Shown here piece after piece: positions 1-5,685 of a stretch of DNA of 5,685 nucleotides; positions within the stretch are counted from its first letter, which is position 1, and each line of letters starts with the position of its first letter. Made by a program: the position numbers and the translations under genes. Source of the stretch: a virus (Duplodnaviria; Heunggongvirae; Uroviricota; Caudoviricetes); the IMG/VR virus record IMGVR_UViG_3300029873_000376, positions 1 through 5,685 of that record. The stretch is one strand, 5' to 3'. The notes beneath the pieces are model-generated. The model saw only the letters and a list, made by a program, of their open reading frames with translations, was not told where the DNA came from and searched no databases.

Positions 1-558
1 ATGAATACAGCTATAACTTTTTCTAACGAGTCACCAAAAGTCTTTTTCAAAGATGGTCGCCTGGTTACCACCTCTCAAGCTGTTGCCGACTACTTCGATA
101 AACAACATAAACACGTTTTAGCTAAGATTGACACACTCGACTGCTCTCCCGAATTTACATCAGCCAACTTTTCGGCCGATGTTCAGACTGTCGAAATTGG
201 CAACGGCGCAGAACGTGAATCACGATGCTACCTGATCACAAAAGACGGCTTCATGTTCCTCGTAATGGGATTTACTGGCAAAAAAGCAGCCAGACTAAAA
301 GAAGCTTACATTGAAAAATTTAACGCAATGGAAGAAGAACTCCACAAACGTCCTCCTGCAGCACAAAACTCCCCCGCCCCAAATAATGGATGCGCATTAC
401 TGATCCACTTCGATAAATACGGTCAGGTCGAGTTCACAGAAAAAGTCCCCGCCGATGCGATGGTATGCACGCTGGAACGGTTTAAATTTTATCTGGAGCA
501 ACATGGGTGGATCGTTGCCCGTAAAGAACAATTGGTGGAAAGGTTGATGCGGTTTTAA
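1..558 (+). CDS. Rha-family phage regulatory protein (185 aa); the ATG sits at window position 1, so the true start could lie upstream
   Basis: ORF 1..558 with stop TAA at 556-558. The N-terminal segment KVFFKDGRLVTTSQAVADYFDKQHKHVLAKIDTL...FTSANFS matches the pattern I recall for the phage Rha N-terminal domain (short beta-strand, then S..VA..F.K.H..VLR.I..L, then nF). The C-terminal half is not recognised. Followed by a hairpin terminator. Confidence 0.75.
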   Translation: MNTAITFSNESPKVFFKDGRLVTTSQAVADYFDKQHKHVLAKIDTLDCSPEFTSANFSADVQTVEIGNGAERESRCYLITKDGFMFLVMGFTGKKAARLKEAYIEKFNAMEEELHKRPPAAQNSPAPNNGCALLIHFDKYGQVEFTEKVPADAMVCTLERFKFYLEQHGWIVARKEQLVERLMRF

Positions 559-919: not shown

Positions 920-1089
920 AACCGCAGCACGTTCCTGCATACGACGTGTCTGCGGCATAATCCCAATGATTACTCCCTGACAGGATTTGCAGGCCACTCA
1001 ATATCAGGTGCAGTTGATGTATCAACACGATTCAACAATACCCGATATTTATTCCATGCCTCCAGCAACGATCTTTCTTCCTCCGTTGC
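920..1089. repeat. Direct repeat copy 1 (about 170 bp): 3' end of tfa plus downstream palindromic hairpin
   Basis: Manual alignment of 920-1089 with 1970-2138 gives roughly 85-90% identity at an offset of 1049-1050 bp, same orientation. The two tfa stop codons (970-972 and 2019-2021) are in register. Confidence 0.85.
922..955 (-). terminator. Hairpin 15 nt after the tfa-like stop (minus strand), candidate intrinsic terminator
   Basis: CCGCAGCACGT (922-932) pairs with ACGTGTCTGCGG (944-955), with one bulged T. On the minus strand it is followed directly by TTAGTTTGTGAGCTTT. Confidence 0.4.
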
Positions 1090-1239
1090 GATTTCCAGAT
1101 CTACAGCATCCTGCAGTGGCGCAATATACTCACTGAATTCCTGGATGTAGAACTGTGTGGTGACGGTCTTCCAGCCATTCGGCTCCTGCTGTATCGAAGC
1201 ATACCAGGCTATTTCAATATCGCTATGCTGCGGCAGCAT
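970..1239 (-). CDS. tfa: Short tail fibre assembly (Tfa)-like protein, 89 aa: novel N-terminal about 40 aa fused to the conserved Tfa C-terminal segment
   Basis: The C-terminus [51 protein letters not shown] closely matches the lambda Tfa C-terminus as I recall it ([44 protein letters not shown]). AAGGGG sits 4 nt upstream of the ATG at 1237-1239. At 89 aa it is much shorter than canonical Tfa (about 190 aa). Confidence 0.7.
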
Positions 1240-1295: not shown

Positions 1296-1964
1296 ATGGT
1301 GAAATCAATGAAAAAAAACACAGATGATGGGGCTAAAATTTACACACCACTTACCCTAAAGCTTTATGACTGGTGGGTTTTGGGAGTATCAAATCGGCTT
1401 GCATGGGGATGTCCTACAAAGGAACACCTTCTTCCACACTTTCTGGAACATGTAGGTAACAACCATCTGGATATTGGTGTTGGAACTGGGTTTTACCTTA
1501 CTCACGTACCTGAGAGTAGTCTGATATCTTTAATGGATTTGAACGAAGCTAGCCTGAACGCGGCATCTACAAGGGCTGGGGAATCAAAAATTAAACATAA
1601 AATTAGCCATGATGTTTTTGAACCTTATCCCGCGGCGTTACATGGTCAATTTGATTCCATTTCCATGTTTTACCTTCTTCACTGCCTGCCTGGAAATATA
1701 TCTACAAAAAGCTGTGTAATACGCAATGCGGCGCAGGCCTTAACTGACGATGGAACTCTATACGGAGCCACAATTCTTGGCGATGGAGTTGTGCACAATA
1801 GCTTCGGTCAAAAACTGATGCGCATTTACAATCAGAAAGGCATCTTTTCAAACACAAAAGATTCCGAAGAAGGCTTAACACATATACTCTCAGAGCATTT
1901 CGAGAATGTTAAAACCAAGGTTCAAGGTACTGTAGTAATGTTTTCCGCTTCAGGGAAAAAATAG
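1296..1964 (+). CDS. Class I (Rossmann-fold) SAM-dependent methyltransferase, 222 aa; alternative start at ATG 1308 (218 aa) with GGTGA 5 nt upstream
   Basis: Glycine-rich motif I LDIGVGTGFY, acidic post-I motif LMDLNE, motif II-like DVFEPYPAALHGQFDSISMFYLLHCLP and motif III-like LTDDGTLY. No DPPY/NPPY or PCQ/ENV motifs, so it is probably not a DNA methyltransferase. Visibly AT-richer than the flanks. From memory, the E. coli K-12 DLP12 prophage carries a methyltransferase-like gene (ybcY) between tfa remnants, which resembles this arrangement; not verified here. Confidence 0.85.
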   Translation: MVKSMKKNTDDGAKIYTPLTLKLYDWWVLGVSNRLAWGCPTKEHLLPHFLEHVGNNHLDIGVGTGFYLTHVPESSLISLMDLNEASLNAASTRAGESKIKHKISHDVFEPYPAALHGQFDSISMFYLLHCLPGNISTKSCVIRNAAQALTDDGTLYGATILGDGVVHNSFGQKLMRIYNQKGIFSNTKDSEEGLTHILSEHFENVKTKVQGTVVMFSASGKK

Positions 1965-2157: not shown

Positions 2158-2451
2158 TCACCCACGATTAACCAACAGCCAGACCAGCAGACACGCCACC
2201 ACCGGCACAGCAAAATCCATCAGGCTTGCCACATCCCACGCGCGCGGATCAAAACCGCCCCACCACGGCATATTCATTCGCTTGCCATGCCCGAACATTT
2301 CAATCCAGCGATATTCTGCCTGGGTGTGTTCACGCGCAATGAAGAACGTACAACCAGCTATCGCCCCGTAAGCCCAGTTCCCGGTAAAAAGACCAATCAG
2401 TAGCTGCGCAGCCACAGCACAAAGCGCATGAAGGAAAGGTGTTATATCCAT
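2158..2451 (-). CDS. Hypothetical small membrane protein (97 aa, two predicted hydrophobic helices, Trp-rich linker)
   Basis: Consensus SD AGGAGG lies 4 nt upstream of the ATG (2449-2451) and directly follows the stop of the upstream gene. Hydrophobic segments FLHALCAVAAQLLIGLFTGNWAYGAIAGCTFFIA and ASLMDFAVPVVACLLVWLLV flank a charged, Trp-rich loop. No family recognised. Confidence 0.55.
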   Translation of the reverse strand: MDITPFLHALCAVAAQLLIGLFTGNWAYGAIAGCTFFIAREHTQAEYRWIEMFGHGKRMNMPWWGGFDPRAWDVASLMDFAVPVVACLLVWLLVNRG

Positions 2452-2461
2452 TACTCCTCCT

Positions 2462-3166
2462 TTATCCGATATCGCTTCGGGAAACGGATAACAACTTTAA
2501 TTCTGACTCAAGTTCATCAACTCTTTCAGTCAGCTTCTGGATATGGTGAATCAGTGGAACAACCAGACGTTCGTACATTACACCTTCGGCAACAAGGCCA
2601 TTGCTGGAAATAGCTTCCGGTGCATCATCTTCGTTAGCTGGTCGCCAGTGTACAAACTGAGGGGCAATTTCTCCTACTTCCTCGGCAATCAATCCGTAGA
2701 ATCCCCAGTCACGCCTGTCATTTGCGCATTGTGACCTGTACCACACAGGGCGCATCCTGAAAATGAGATCGGCGTGCTCTGAATCTATTGTCTCTACTGA
2801 ATGTTTATAGCGGATAGACGATGTTGACCGCAGCACAGACGAAATTGCGGGGTCAGGATTAAGATAAAGGTTTGCCGCCGCTGTAGTCGTGCCCAATCCC
2901 CACAAATAAAACGCTTCACGGCCAGTCAACGGGTAAAAATCTCCACCATAACGACCGCTTTCCAGAGCGTTCACTTCCAGTTTGTTTTTCAGCTTATTAT
3001 CAACTTCAGTTTTTGTGTATCTGGTGCTGATATCCTGCTTTGCACTGGTCATATCAGCCTGAAGCGTTGATACTTTTCCGTTAATTGAGGAAATATCTTC
3101 CTTGGCTTTACTGACATCTCCCTTTAACGTGGTGATGTCTCCCGGAATTACTGTCGATGTAGCCAT
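2462..3166 (-). CDS. Tail-fibre-like protein (234 aa) with C-terminal intramolecular-chaperone-like (peptidase S74-type) domain
   Basis: GGGAG lies 4 nt upstream of the ATG (3164-3166). Residues about 112-225 (S-S-I-R-Y-K...ETID...LIFRMRPVWY...WGFYGLIAEEVGEIAPQFV...GVMYERLVVPLIHHIQKL...ELESELKLL) fit the pattern I recall for the auto-cleaving C-terminal chaperone domain of endosialidase-type tailspikes and the T5 L-shaped fibre (S-D-x-R-x-K-x-N-I...L-R-P-V-x-Y...G-F-I-A-Q-E-V...P-E...L-I-x-A-I-Q-E-L). The N-terminal 70 aa are coiled-coil-like with two similar segments (LKGDVSKAKEDISS / LQADMTSAKQDIST). Confidence 0.65.
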   Translation of the reverse strand: MATSTVIPGDITTLKGDVSKAKEDISSINGKVSTLQADMTSAKQDISTRYTKTEVDNKLKNKLEVNALESGRYGGDFYPLTGREAFYLWGLGTTTAAANLYLNPDPAISSVLRSTSSIRYKHSVETIDSEHADLIFRMRPVWYRSQCANDRRDWGFYGLIAEEVGEIAPQFVHWRPANEDDAPEAISSNGLVAEGVMYERLVVPLIHHIQKLTERVDELESELKLLSVSRSDIG

Positions 3167-3175
3167 TTGTCTCCC

Positions 3176-3457
3176 TCACATCCAGCCACGAAGTTGATGT
3201 TCAACTACAACCGCGTATTCATCGAATATTGACGATTTTTTTGCATCATTAATGATGCGCACGTTTACAAAATATCCATCTTCCTTAACACATACCGGTT
3301 CGCCATCTTCAGTCAGTTCTCCGGTTTCTTTGTACACGTTACCTATCACGTCAATAAGAATATCATCCTGCATCGACTCGTCATCATAATAGCCAATGCT
3401 ATCCATAAAGGCCGAAAAGTCGGCCCTGTCTGCAAATTTGAGTGTTAAATCTTTCAT
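3176..3457 (-). CDS. Hypothetical acidic protein (93 aa), translationally coupled to stf
   Basis: Its ATG (3455-3457) overlaps the stf stop codon (TAATG). GGGGGAG sits 8 nt upstream, inside the stf 3' end. Rich in Asp/Glu; no family recognised. It occupies the position where tfa normally follows stf. Confidence 0.55.
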   Translation of the reverse strand: MKDLTLKFADRADFSAFMDSIGYYDDESMQDDILIDVIGNVYKETGELTEDGEPVCVKEDGYFVNVRIINDAKKSSIFDEYAVVVEHQLRGWM

Positions 3458-5685
3458 TAGATTGACTCCCCCATCTGAGCATCAGTCAATGCCTTGTGCC
3501 ATATTCTGAAATTCCTGACATGACCAAATAAATGACGCAACCCGGCTGTAGTCTGGCCTCCAATACGGATAATTGCGGAGTTCTGAATATAGGACCATGT
3601 GGCTTTCTTTTCGCTGGATATACGCCCGTTACTTACTGAGCACGTAGACTGATCTGACTTTACACGCATCCCCATAACCATTTTTTCAAGCGATGCGTTT
3701 TCGTTTACCCGTCTGTTAGCCAAACCTATATCACAATAAGGAAATCCGTCGTAATCTGTTGAACGACCGAAGCCAAGAATAATAGCCGCTCCGGTTTGAT
3801 GACCGCCGGTATCAAAAACACGCGGTGCTGCATTTGGCGTTTTATACCAGTTCTTATGTACCTCACAAAGAACCGTAAAAGGAAGATTATAAAGATTATT
3901 CTTAATTGGAACTGTAACTATATCGCTTGCGCGGGTCGCCGCCGTCGCTCCTGATATAATAAAAGATGATACACAAGGCCCATCTTCTACTTGTGGGGTG
4001 GCCAGATAAATATAGTCACCAGATACGGTTGCCCCGCTCTGCTTAGGAGAATACTGTATCTGAGAGCCTATTTTTAACTCCCCATCAATTGCCTGAATTG
4101 TTGCCTCTGCAAAAATCCATCCGGTAGCTTCGTCCTTTCTGACTCTCGCTGTAATTCTTGAGGCAGCACCGCCTGTCATATTAATTTCAAGCGTTTGTGT
4201 ATCAATATACGCATCACCAAGAAAAGTTGTTGCGCTACCGTCATATTTATCAAACCGGATACGCAACCTTACCTGCAGTTCTGTTTTAAAACGACATGAG
4301 GTTGTCACGTGTTTATTATCGCCTGAGACATCAACTGACTTTGTTGCAGCAATTGATGCCATATTAATGGCTGAGGTTTGCCCAATCAGAGAATCGTTGC
4401 AGACAAACTTTCCATAGGTAAAACCAAAATTATCCGTCCCTGTTTCGGGCACATCCATATTTGACGATCGCCCCCAACTGGCAGGGCTTTCCGAATTGAG
4501 CATGTAGTTTGTTCTTTGCCCCTCAATAAGCAGGCCATCACGTTCAAATCGTGGCTCGTCAATGGCAGCCTCTGTCAGCACACCAGATTTGTTAATATAG
4601 GTTGCTTTCGATGCACGTTTAAACTTAACAATCTTGTCGCCAGGCATCGTTATTTCATCGTCACCAATAACAATTTTTTTATATGATGGCGAAAAGCCCG
4701 TAATCATATCCAGCGAATCGTTAAATGGTATCCACACATCAGGCAGCGGCTGTAAGACATATTTATACGGCTCCGCAGCCTGGCTTGCGTACTCTCTGGC
4801 TGCATCTTCGCTTGCTTTAGCTGCCGTCTGGCTTGCTGCCGATGCTTTCGCTGAGTTCGCAGCCGCTGTTTCGCTCACCTTTGCGTTGGTTTCACTGGTT
4901 TTTGCTGCTTTTTGACTGTTAGCTGATGCAGTGGCAGAAGCAGCCGCCGCGCTTGCAGAACTGGCTGCGGCACTCTCGCTTTGGGCCGCTGCATCCTGAC
5001 TGCTTTTCGCCGCAGTTTCACTGGCTTTGGCATTCGTTTCGCTGGTCTTCGCTGCCGCCTGGCTGGACTTTGCGTTAGTTTCACTCGTCTTCGCAGCTTT
5101 CTGGCTGTTAGCCGCAGCAGTTGCTGATCCAGCTGCTGAAGTCGCAGAACCGGCTGCCGCGCTCTCGCTTTGGGCTGCTGCAACCTGGCTGTTTTTTGCT
5201 GCAGTTTCACTGGCTTTAGCATTCGTTTCGCTGGTCTTCGCTGCCGCCTGTGCGCTGTTAGCTGCATTCGTTTCTGAGGTTTTCGCCGCGTTCTTCGATG
5301 ATGCCGCTGCAGTTTCGGATTTCTTTGCCGCCGCTGCGCTCTGAGAGGCGGCTTCAGCGTTGCGTGCCGCTTCTTCCACCATTGCCTCAAAACGACGCAA
5401 TGCCTCCGGCATGACATCATCTTCCGTCATGGCACCGAGAAAATCATTCAGCGTACCTGGTCTGGAACCTTCATAGACGGTAATGGTTCCGGCATGTGAA
5501 GGCGGAAAACCTTCAACAAGCAGGATAACGCTGTACTGGCCATACTCAACATCCATGCTGTAACGCCCGGCTTCATCCGGATTTTCAGAGGCCACCGTGT
5601 TCACCAGTACCGTGGTACTGTTACGTTTTGCTTTCAGCTGGATTGTGCAGTTCTGTACCGGTTTTCCTGTGCCGTCTTTCAGTAC
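3457..5685 (-). CDS. stf: Side tail fibre protein (Stf-like), 5'-partial: the reading frame is open to the window edge
   Basis: The minus-strand frame is open from 5685 (VLKDGTGKPVQNCTIQ...) through the listed Met at 5604. The N-terminus NTVASENPDEAGRYSMDVEYGQYSVIL.V.GFPPSHAGTITVYE...PGTLNDFL matches the lambda Stf / E. coli prophage side tail fibre N-terminus as I recall it. This is followed by an Ala/Ser/Thr-rich repetitive region and a 440-aa C-terminal domain ending ...LFGHVRNFRIWHKALTDAQMGESI. Confidence 0.9.
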   Translation of the reverse strand, partial: VLKDGTGKPVQNCTIQLKAKRNSTTVLVNTVASENPDEAGRYSMDVEYGQYSVILLVEGFPPSHAGTITVYEGSRPGTLNDFLGAMTEDDVMPEALRRFEAMVEEAARNAEAASQSAAAAKKSETAAASSKNAAKTSETNAANSAQAAAKTSETNAKASETAAKNSQVAAAQSESAAAGSATSAAGSATAAANSQKAAKTSETNAKSSQAAAKTSETNAKASETAAKSSQDAAAQSESAAASSASAAAASATASANSQKAAKTSETNAKVSETAAANSAKASAASQTAAKASEDAAREYASQAAEPYKYVLQPLPDVWIPFNDSLDMITGFSPSYKKIVIGDDEITMPGDKIVKFKRASKATYINKSGVLTEAAIDEPRFERDGLLIEGQRTNYMLNSESPASWGRSSNMDVPETGTDNFGFTYGKFVCNDSLIGQTSAINMASIAATKSVDVSGDNKHVTTSCRFKTELQVRLRIRFDKYDGSATTFLGDAYIDTQTLEINMTGGAASRITARVRKDEATGWIFAEATIQAIDGELKIGSQIQYSPKQSGATVSGDYIYLATPQVEDGPCVSSFIISGATAATRASDIVTVPIKNNLYNLPFTVLCEVHKNWYKTPNAAPRVFDTGGHQTGAAIILGFGRSTDYDGFPYCDIGLANRRVNENASLEKMVMGMRVKSDQSTCSVSNGRISSEKKATWSYIQNSAIIRIGGQTTAGLRHLFGHVRNFRIWHKALTDAQMGESI
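4823..5250. repeat. Imperfect tandem repeat, period about 189 bp (63 codons), roughly 2.3 copies, inside the stf shaft region
   Basis: GCAGTTTCACTGGCTTT(A/G)GCATTCGTTTCGCTGGTCTTCGCTGCCGCCTG occurs at 5012 and 5201. The protein units AAKTSETNAKASETAAKNSQ...NSQKAAKTSETNAKSSQ and AAKTSETNAKASETAAKSSQ...NSQKAAKTSETNAKVSE are near-identical. Confidence 0.8.

What the first reader, a model, noticed from the sequence alone, without database searches (positions are those of the whole stretch)
3176..3457. Acidic 93-aa protein translationally coupled to stf: candidate non-Tfa fibre chaperone
The ATG overlaps the stf stop codon and an SD lies within the stf 3' end, so expression is likely coupled to the fibre. 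The protein is strongly acidic and shows no Tfa-like C-terminal motif. Its position is exactly where fibre assembly or adhesin-tip proteins sit in other phages. It may be an unrecognised chaperone family specific to this C-terminal domain type.
Basis: inference. Interest (0 to 1): 0.5.

Follow-up and report, generated by a model that had tools for sequence, protein, structure and literature searches.

The report
Small acidic tail-fibre partner protein
A real 93-residue acidic gene that always sits directly behind one kind of phage tail-fibre tip domain, from E. coli prophages to environmental viruses; it most likely helps that tip fold or caps it, but nobody has named or tested the family.

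Summary
On the minus strand, a 93-aa ORF (3457..3176, pI 4.2) starts in a TAATG overlap with the stf stop, behind a GGGGGAG Shine-Dalgarno. It is a real gene: a full-length match to PHROG 1361 ("unknown function"), no Pfam or NCBIfam hit, and dN/dS about 0.33.

In every enteric phage lineage examined (lambdoid, T5-like, Drexlerviridae, Dhillonvirus, Seuratvirus, rV5-like), and in Aeromonas, Leclercia, Silvania and Buttiauxella prophages, the gene directly follows a fibre ending in the same roughly 430-aa domain (GTA head-spike-fibre type, called galectin-like in the literature). The same holds for 65 of 109 testable environmental viral loci.

In Vequintavirus a natural swap replaces [tip + C-terminal intramolecular chaperone] with [this tip + small ORF]. 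One Noviherbaspirillum relative is fused to DUF4376, the domain of experimentally proven fibre chaperones.

The partner does not depend on the second fibre gene downstream. Its fold is a generic alpha/beta sandwich with no informative match.

Best reading: a trans-acting chaperone or cap dedicated to this tip domain. Binding and chaperone activity are inferred, not shown. It is a new family within a known kind of system, and of moderate interest.

The parts
3176..3457 (-). 93-aa acidic protein gene (the finding). It belongs to PHROG 1361 and has no Pfam or NCBIfam family.
   Evidence: AF2 model: pLDDT 84, order beta-alpha-alpha-beta-beta-beta-beta, low-confidence C-terminal tail carrying the conserved P-x-R-x-W end.
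3466..3472 (-). Shine-Dalgarno GGGGGAG inside the 3' end of stf, 8 nt upstream of the ATG. The stop and start overlap as TAATG at 3455-3459.
   Evidence: Read directly. The overlap of 1 or 4 nt is conserved in 80 related loci and in six phage lineages.
3460..4740 (-). C-terminal domain of Stf, about 427 aa, with which the small gene co-occurs. It has conserved N- and C-terminal flanks and a variable interior, and ends ...RHLFGHVRNFRIWHKALTDAQMGESI.
   Evidence: NCBIfam NF048003 GTA_spike_fiber, 50.7 bits against a cutoff of 36. PDB 6tb9 RcGTA head spike fibre, E 1e-7. Homologous in all lineages. Conservation profile. The IrisVonRoten Gp22 homologue is described as having a 'galectin-like' C-terminal domain (PMC11990801).
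3457..5685 (-). Side tail fibre gene stf. Its 5' end runs off the window. It has the N-terminal phage_tail_N domain and Ala/Ser-rich repeats.
   Evidence: Pfam PF08400 E 4e-63 and phrog_1419.
2462..3166 (-). 234-aa second fibre-like protein ('fibre B'): conserved N-terminal peptide MATSTVIPGDITTLK, a coiled coil and a Peptidase_S74 intramolecular chaperone. It is an optional neighbour, not needed for the pairing.
   Evidence: Pfam PF13884 at aa 116-172. Always 9 nt after the small gene when present. Absent in mEp460, PhiR40_1, PhiR41_1, rV5-like phages and most environmental loci.
2158..2451 (-). 97-aa hydrophobic ORF (phrog_1443). It directly follows the small gene in loci that lack fibre B.

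Best explanation
The ORF encodes a member of an uncharacterised family of small acidic phage proteins (PHROG 1361/18574). The family is the dedicated genetic partner of one type of tail-fibre distal domain: the roughly 430-aa 'GTA head-spike-fibre / galectin-like' beta-sandwich that ends this Stf.

The gene is translated by coupling to the end of stf, so it is made together with the fibre. I infer that it binds the conserved framework of that domain rather than its variable loops. I further infer that it acts in trans as the domain's folding or assembly helper and/or a transient cap. That is the role a C-terminal intramolecular chaperone (Peptidase_S74), a Tfa, or a DUF4376 protein plays for other fibre tips.

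Shown: it is a gene, it is coupled to stf, it is strictly linked to the domain, it moves with the domain as a cassette, and it is independent of the second fibre. Inferred: physical binding, chaperone or cap activity, and whether it leaves the mature fibre.
For: 1. Pairing in enteric phages. In lambdoid, Seuratvirus, Tequintavirus, Drexlerviridae, Dhillonvirus and Vequintavirus genomes the small gene always follows a fibre whose last roughly 430 aa are homologous to Stf 314-742 (39-93% identity). The fibres' N-terminal parts and the rest of the genomes are unrelated.

2. Both directions. Of 174 loci, 171 have the small gene and 173 the domain. The 4 that did not show both partners are three loci where the contig ends next to the gene, and the distant RcapMu.

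3. Other species. Escherichia ruysiae (2 loci), Silvania, Leclercia (2), Buttiauxella and Aeromonas (3) have the pair even at 26-30% domain identity, with start and stop overlapping or 2 nt apart.

4. Environmental viruses. A motif scan for the domain in IMG/VR gave 109 testable genes. 65 are followed by a family member, mostly at offsets of -7 to +15 nt. Several others are followed by similar-looking small acidic ORFs.

5. Cassette swap. rV5 gp41 and naswa gp54 are 91% identical over aa 1-1058. Then rV5 has a tip with an S74 intramolecular chaperone and no small ORF, while naswa has this domain plus the small ORF. The downstream intergenic DNA is the same (PMC3606486).

6. Fusion. In a Noviherbaspirillum prophage, the gene after the domain encodes the small-family domain (hhalign 94%, E 1e-7, full length) joined to DUF4376 (Pfam E 5e-24). 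DUF4376 proteins V22 gp27 and A5 gp9 are experimentally characterised fibre chaperones or caps (PMC7289586, PMC10579305).

7. Conservation pattern. Among E. coli prophages the small protein stays at 91% identity or more while the domain ranges from 43 to 100%. The domain's conserved parts are its N- and C-terminal flanks.

8. All members are acidic, pI 4.05-4.5.
Against: There is no experimental or structural evidence of binding or chaperoning.

The fusion to DUF4376 is a single case from a metagenome-assembled genome. It could equally mean that the small domain is only a docking module that needs DUF4376 for chaperoning.

About 40% of environmental domain genes are not followed by a detectable member. 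Alphaproteobacterial GTA-type spike fibres and RcapMu also lack one, so the domain can fold without it.

Tight coupling of expression with the fibre fits a stoichiometric structural subunit as well as a chaperone.
Confidence: 0.55

Rival explanations
1. A structural joint or adaptor. The small protein stays in the virion at the end of Stf and forms the socket that holds the N-terminal peptide of the second fibre (fibre B). That would make a branched fibre, comparable to the small connector proteins gp35 and gp36 of the T4 long tail fibre.
For: Gene order is fibre A, small gene, fibre B, with an invariant 9-12 nt gap, in lambdoid, T5-like, Seuratvirus, Drexlerviridae and Dhillonvirus phages. 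The fibre B N-terminal motif T-x-IP-x-DIT-x-LK is conserved across these lineages, and in the phage database it was found only downstream of the small gene. The IrisVonRoten T-shaped fibre Gp24 is modelled as attached to the proximal fibre Gp22 (PMC11990801). Coupled translation fits a stoichiometric subunit.
Against: The small gene is intact and conserved where no fibre B exists: mEp460, PhiR40_1, PhiR41_1, E. ruysiae L177, all rV5-like phages, Aeromonas and Noviherbaspirillum. Of the 61 small-family loci scored for what follows the small gene, only 2 have a fibre-B-like gene next, and both are E. coli-type loci; the genes that follow in the others are heterogeneous and look unrelated. DT57C builds a branched LtfA/LtfB fibre without such a gene. 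At most this is a secondary role in enteric phages.
Confidence: 0.2
2. A permanently bound distal-tip subunit that takes part in receptor recognition, like gp38 of T2/S16-type fibres or Mu Tfa, which stays on the fibre tip.
For: The position directly after the fibre gene, and the coupled expression, are the same as for gp38 and Mu Tfa (background in PMC7289586).
Against: The protein is much more conserved than the variable interior of the fibre domain: 91% identity or more, against 43-100% in E. coli prophages. That is the opposite of what is expected for a specificity determinant. There is no similarity to gp38 or Tfa. It has no hypervariable segments.
Confidence: 0.15
3. An unrelated passenger gene (moron, immunity or exclusion function) that merely hitch-hikes next to the fibre gene, or a conserved ORF with no function.
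For: No function is annotated anywhere, and the fold is generic.
Against: Purifying selection. Conservation of the pairing and the overlapping start across phage families and bacterial orders. Co-transfer with the domain in the Vequintavirus swap. Fusion to a fibre-chaperone domain.
Confidence: 0.05

Closest known systems
DUF4376 intermolecular tail-fibre chaperones / 'transient caps' (Alteromonas phage V22 gp27, A5 gp9)
   Same: They are encoded directly after the fibre gene. They pair with a lectin-like distal head domain and move with it between unrelated phages. One relative of the small protein is physically fused to DUF4376.
   Different: The window protein has no DUF4376 domain and is half the size. 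The N-terminal part of V22 gp27 and the V22 gp26 fibre are not detectably homologous to the small family or to the Stf domain.
Tfa / Caudo_TAP tail fibre assembly proteins (lambda Tfa, P2 G, Mu U)
   Same: Gene position directly after stf, and a presumed role in maturation of the fibre tip. A Tfa remnant still lies further downstream in this window (970-1239).
   Different: No PF02413 match, no Tfa C-terminal motif, a different size and a different predicted fold.
C-terminal intramolecular chaperone domain (Peptidase_S74; K1F endosialidase, T5 pb1)
   Same: It occupies the same functional slot. In Vequintavirus a tip ending in an IMC is exchanged for this domain plus the small ORF.
   Different: It is a separate polypeptide with no S74 match and no autoproteolysis motif. 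The S74 domain in this window belongs to the next gene (2462-3166).
T4 gp38 / gp57A chaperones and S16/T2 gp38 adhesin
   Same: Small accessory proteins needed for, or attached to, a fibre tip, and encoded next to the fibre gene.
   Different: No sequence or fold similarity. The small protein is conserved rather than hypervariable.
RcGTA head spike fibre Rcc01080 (PDB 6tb9). This is the relative of the partner domain, not of the small protein.
   Same: The Stf C-terminal domain matches it by sequence (E 1e-7) and matches NCBIfam GTA_spike_fiber.
   Different: The related RcapMu tail protein, found in the same domain search, has no small partner gene after it. In the alphaproteobacterial loci the profile found no member, though L189 has a small acidic ORF that looks family-like. 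Here the domain sits on a tail fibre rather than a capsid spike.

Membership tests
PHROG 1361 (unknown function) | Full-length match to the family profile | tested here: met
   E 8e-47, aa 1-93 against profile positions 1-92 of 92. There is a weaker match to the sister family phrog_18574, which the Aeromonas members hit.
Tfa / Caudo_TAP (PF02413) | Match to the Caudo_TAP profile, including the conserved C-terminal fibre-binding segment | tested here: not met
   No Pfam hit at E up to 0.1. In the same scan, the 89-aa remnant at 970-1239 hits PF02413 at 6e-25.
Tfa / Caudo_TAP (PF02413) | Gene directly downstream of the fibre gene it serves | tested here: met
   TAATG overlap with stf.
Peptidase_S74 intramolecular chaperone | S74 domain with a catalytic Ser-Lys dyad, fused to the C-terminus of the fibre | tested here: not met
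   No PF13884 hit in the small protein or in Stf. The hit is in the next gene.
DUF4376 fibre chaperones (V22 gp27 type) | PF14301 domain | tested here: not met
   Absent from the window protein. Present only in the fused Noviherbaspirillum relative, at aa 90-195, E 5e-24.
DUF4376 fibre chaperones (V22 gp27 type) | Co-expression needed for a functional fibre; transient complex with the fibre head | not testable with these tools
   Needs co-expression and SEC or binding assays as in PMC7289586.
gp38-type adhesin / T4 gp57A | Profile match or fold similarity | tested here: not met
GTA_spike_fiber domain (NF048003), for the partner Stf domain | Score above the curated cutoff | tested here: met
   50.7 bits against a cutoff of 36, at Stf aa 386-586. 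PDB 6tb9 E 1e-7.

The most novel reading that the evidence does not exclude
The small acidic proteins of PHROG 1361/18574 are a previously unrecognised, widespread class of trans-acting chaperone or cap for lectin-like (GTA-spike-fibre type) receptor-binding domains. They are unrelated to Tfa, IMC, gp38, gp57A and DUF4376. They would be required whenever this very common tip domain is moved into another phage or expressed recombinantly. In enteric phages they may also form the socket that lets a second fibre branch off the first.
Probability: 0.45. Interest if true: 0.6.

Novelty: new variant of a known kind. Interest (0 to 1): 0.5.

Why it matters
This fibre-tip domain is one of the commonest exchangeable host-range modules of coliphages. 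The junction is present in 990 of 5,426 complete E. coli genomes, in six virulent and temperate phage lineages, and in many environmental viruses.

People who build chimeric side tail fibres, or express receptor-binding domains, choose fusion points inside the fibre and carry along known chaperones such as Tfa or IMC. A 93-aa 'hypothetical protein' would be left behind.

If it is needed for folding or capping this domain, it explains failed chimeras and should be annotated and transferred as one unit with the domain. It would also add a new family to the short list of fibre helpers. It gives a clean model in which the same fibre stem uses either a cis chaperone (rV5) or this trans partner (naswa, FFH2).

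Tried and rejected
- Structure of a Stf-domain-linker-small fusion with a paired alignment.
- Profile searches of the big protein databases. They returned near-identical E. coli 'hypothetical proteins' and only about 50 cluster representatives. The family looked narrow until context-based searches showed otherwise.
- The search for related loci with the small-family alignment and with the distant-fibre alignment failed for lack of a conserved stretch. This was replaced by a degenerate DNA motif scan.
- A search with the Noviherbaspirillum N-terminal domain found nothing, so the fusion remains a single example.
- Tested whether V22 gp27's N-terminal part, Salmonella STM4199 or Acidovorax AP1 'Tfa' contain the small domain, and whether their fibres contain the Stf domain. 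They do not.
- Literature. The DT57C LtfA/LtfB papers, both BASEL papers, the rV5 proteomics paper, the BF23 paper and the Eligo lambda-Stf engineering papers do not mention or characterise this protein. The rV5 proteome is uninformative because rV5 itself carries the IMC allele.

Full report
**What is in the window.**

All relevant genes are on the minus strand.
- stf (3457..>5685) has the prophage tail-fibre N-terminal domain (PF08400, E 4e-63) and matches phrog_1419.
- The 93-aa ORF of the finding is at 3457..3176.
- A 234-aa protein (3166..2462) carries a Peptidase_S74 intramolecular chaperone at aa 116-172.
- A 97-aa hydrophobic ORF (2451..2158) is phrog_1443.
- Further on lie an 89-aa C-terminal remnant of a Tfa (1239..970, PF02413 E 6e-25), a plus-strand SAM methyltransferase (1296..1964) and a Rha-type regulator (1..558).

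The minus strand reads GGGGGAG-TCAATCTA-ATG. The stf stop TAA shares its last A with the ATG (TAATG). The next gene starts 9 nt after the ORF's TGA, behind GAGGGAG.

The protein has pI 4.17, with 21 acidic and 9 basic residues. It has no Pfam or NCBIfam match, so it is not a Tfa.

**It is a real gene.**

- It matches phrog_1361 ('unknown function') end to end at E 8e-47.
- tblastn finds homologues at 30-55% identity in 183 phage records, always annotated as hypothetical and lying against a tail-fibre gene.
- Across 58 distinct alleles the median dN/dS is 0.33 in frame, against 0.59-0.76 out of frame.
- The junction occurs in 990 of 5,426 complete E. coli genomes.

**What it travels with.**

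The same triplet, or at least the same pair, appears in phages that share nothing else: lambdoid phages (HannyBb, mEp460, PhiR40_1), Seuratvirus (VogelGryff), Tequintavirus (IrisVonRoten, L6jm, SelmaRatti, SP15, IME178), Drexlerviridae (G3B1), Dhillonvirus (KarlBarth) and Vequintavirus (naswa, MiataMamis).

In every case but one the upstream fibre's last roughly 430 aa are homologous to Stf 314-742 at 39-93% identity. In IME178, the most divergent case, BLAST matches only the start of this region, although its fibre ends in a related C-terminal motif. The fibres share the C-terminal signature GGQ..G.RHLFGH.RNFR.WH.ALTD.Q.

With profiles for both partners, 171 of 174 collected loci have the small gene and 173 have the domain. 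The four loci that did not show both are three where the contig ends next to the gene, and the distant Rhodobacter phage RcapMu.

That sample is dominated by E. coli prophages, so I widened it in two ways.

1. One genome per species. Escherichia ruysiae (two loci), Silvania, Leclercia (two), Buttiauxella and Aeromonas (three) all have a family member overlapping, or within a few bases of, the stop of the domain gene, even at 26-30% domain identity.
2. A degenerate DNA scan of IMG/VR for a motif of the domain (F-A-T-S-Y-I-P-T). This gave 120 environmental viral loci. Of 109 domain genes with enough downstream sequence, 65 are followed by a family member, mostly at offsets of -7 to +15 nt.
   - Many of the rest are internal members of tandem arrays of such genes.
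   - Others are followed by a tailspike, or by small acidic ORFs that look like diverged members (MxDxLLKF...).

**What the partner domain is.**

The Stf C-terminal region matches NCBIfam NF048003 'GTA_spike_fiber' above its cutoff. It also matches the RcGTA head spike fibre in PDB 6tb9 at E 1e-7.

[quoted passage not shown] The T-shaped fibre Gp24 attaches to it. Gp23, the small protein, is not discussed (PMC11990801).

In E. coli prophages the domain has conserved N- and C-terminal flanks and a variable interior. It ranges from 43 to 100% identity while the small protein stays at 91% or more.

**Two pieces of evidence about function.**

*A natural cassette swap.* rV5 gp41 and naswa gp54 are 91% identical for their first roughly 1,058 residues and then diverge.
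- rV5 ends in a tip with an S74-type intramolecular chaperone and has no small ORF.
- naswa ends in the Stf-type domain followed by the small ORF.
- The DNA after the cassette (terminator and promoter, up to the Dit gene) is the same in both. The rV5 C-terminus was described in PMC3606486.

So the small ORF comes and goes with the domain. It takes the place that a cis-acting chaperone holds in the alternative allele.

*A fusion.* In a Noviherbaspirillum prophage, the gene after the domain gene encodes a 204-aa protein.
- Its first 83 residues align with the whole small family (hhalign probability 94%, E 1e-7).
- Residues 90-195 are DUF4376 (Pfam E 5e-24).

DUF4376 is the domain of V22 gp27 and A5 gp9.
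- gp27 is required for a functional V22 fibre.
- Both proteins resemble intramolecular chaperones.
- They are proposed to cap the fibre tip transiently.
- Their extra N-terminal beta-strands are modelled as extending the beta-sheet of the lectin-like fibre head (PMC7289586, PMC10579305).

By analogy, the small family would be the head-binding module.

**The protein itself.**

The AF2 model (16-sequence alignment, pLDDT 84, pTM 0.70) is a compact beta-alpha-alpha-beta-beta-beta-beta domain. The tail is less confident (pLDDT 58-70) and carries the conserved P-x-R-x-W end, which suggests a partner-binding segment.

**The rival reading.**

In enteric phages a second fibre gene follows at a fixed 9-12 nt. 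It has a conserved N-terminal peptide (T-x-IP-x-DIT-x-LK) that I found only downstream of the small gene. The small protein could therefore be the socket of a branched fibre.

That cannot be its general role. The small gene is intact where no second fibre exists: mEp460, PhiR40_1, PhiR41_1, E. ruysiae L177, all rV5-like phages, Aeromonas and Noviherbaspirillum. Of the 61 small-family loci scored for the next gene, only 2 have a fibre-B-like gene there, both E. coli-type. DT57C also branches its fibre without such a gene.

A role as a specificity-determining adhesin is unlikely, because the protein is far more conserved than the domain's variable interior.

**Verdict.**

The most likely mechanism is a translationally coupled, trans-acting helper or cap that binds the conserved framework of this lectin-like fibre tip. 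I give this a confidence of about 0.55. Binding, chaperone activity and presence in the virion are all untested.

The family is already clustered in PHROGs but has no name, no Pfam model and no literature that I could find. It is a new family within the known category of fibre accessory proteins. It has practical weight for fibre engineering and annotation, but it is not a new kind of biology.

Noticed in passing
window 2462-3166 (-): The 234-aa 'second fibre' has a conserved N-terminal peptide (MATSTVIPGDITTLK), a coiled coil and an S74 intramolecular chaperone, but no receptor-binding body. After self-cleavage only about 115 aa would remain. Equivalents of 224 aa are common in Drexlerviridae, and 346-aa alleles with a body occur in other E. 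coli prophages. What a stub fibre does is unclear.
   Followed up: partly
window 2158-2451 (-): The 97-aa hydrophobic ORF (phrog_1443, unknown function) directly follows the small gene in mEp460, PhiR40_1, PhiR41_1 and E. ruysiae L177. The second fibre gene therefore looks like an optional insert between the two.
   Followed up: partly
window 950-1089 and 1999-2138: A 140-nt direct repeat (91% identical) brackets a C-terminal Tfa remnant (970-1239, minus strand) and a plus-strand SAM-dependent methyltransferase (1296-1964). This looks like a moron inserted between duplicated tfa 3' ends, left over from a displaced stf-tfa module.
   Followed up: partly
L175 (rV5, 8200-12018) versus L086 (naswa, 1562-6333): Vequintavirus fibre alleles are 91% identical up to about aa 1058. 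They then switch between a tip with an intramolecular chaperone and a GTA-spike-fibre-type tip plus the small ORF, with identical DNA downstream.
   Followed up: yes
L186 3888-4502 (Noviherbaspirillum MAG): A single protein joins the small-family domain to DUF4376. It is followed by a homologue of the gene that follows the fibre-chaperone gene in Acidovorax phage AP1 and in the Salmonella STM4198 locus, and then by lysis-type genes. This is the only such fusion found.
   Followed up: partly
L215, L240, L264, L280, L308, L315 (IMG/VR contigs): Environmental phages carry two or three tandem genes ending in the same fibre-tip domain. Where a small-family ORF was detected (L215, L308, L315) it follows only the last of them.
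   Followed up: no
L189 4143-4367; L227, L235, L263, L254, L293, L295, L306: Small acidic ORFs (75-130 aa) that start like the family (MxDxxLKF...) and sometimes end in ...VWA follow the domain gene but escape the profiles. The family is probably larger than measured.
   Followed up: no
phage database records MG065676, MG065655, MG065635 and similar; L178: Records labelled Campylobacter or Listeria phage, and a 'Collinsella' MAG contig, carry near-identical E. coli-phage versions of this locus. They are probably mislabelled or contaminant sequences.
   Followed up: no
window 4800-5400 (-): The Stf shaft contains Ala/Ser-rich near-repeats (…AAKTSETNAK(A/S)SE…). On the plus strand this region has GC 0.56-0.58 and AT skew of -0.45 to -0.58. 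It also produces long spurious ORFs in other frames.
   Followed up: no
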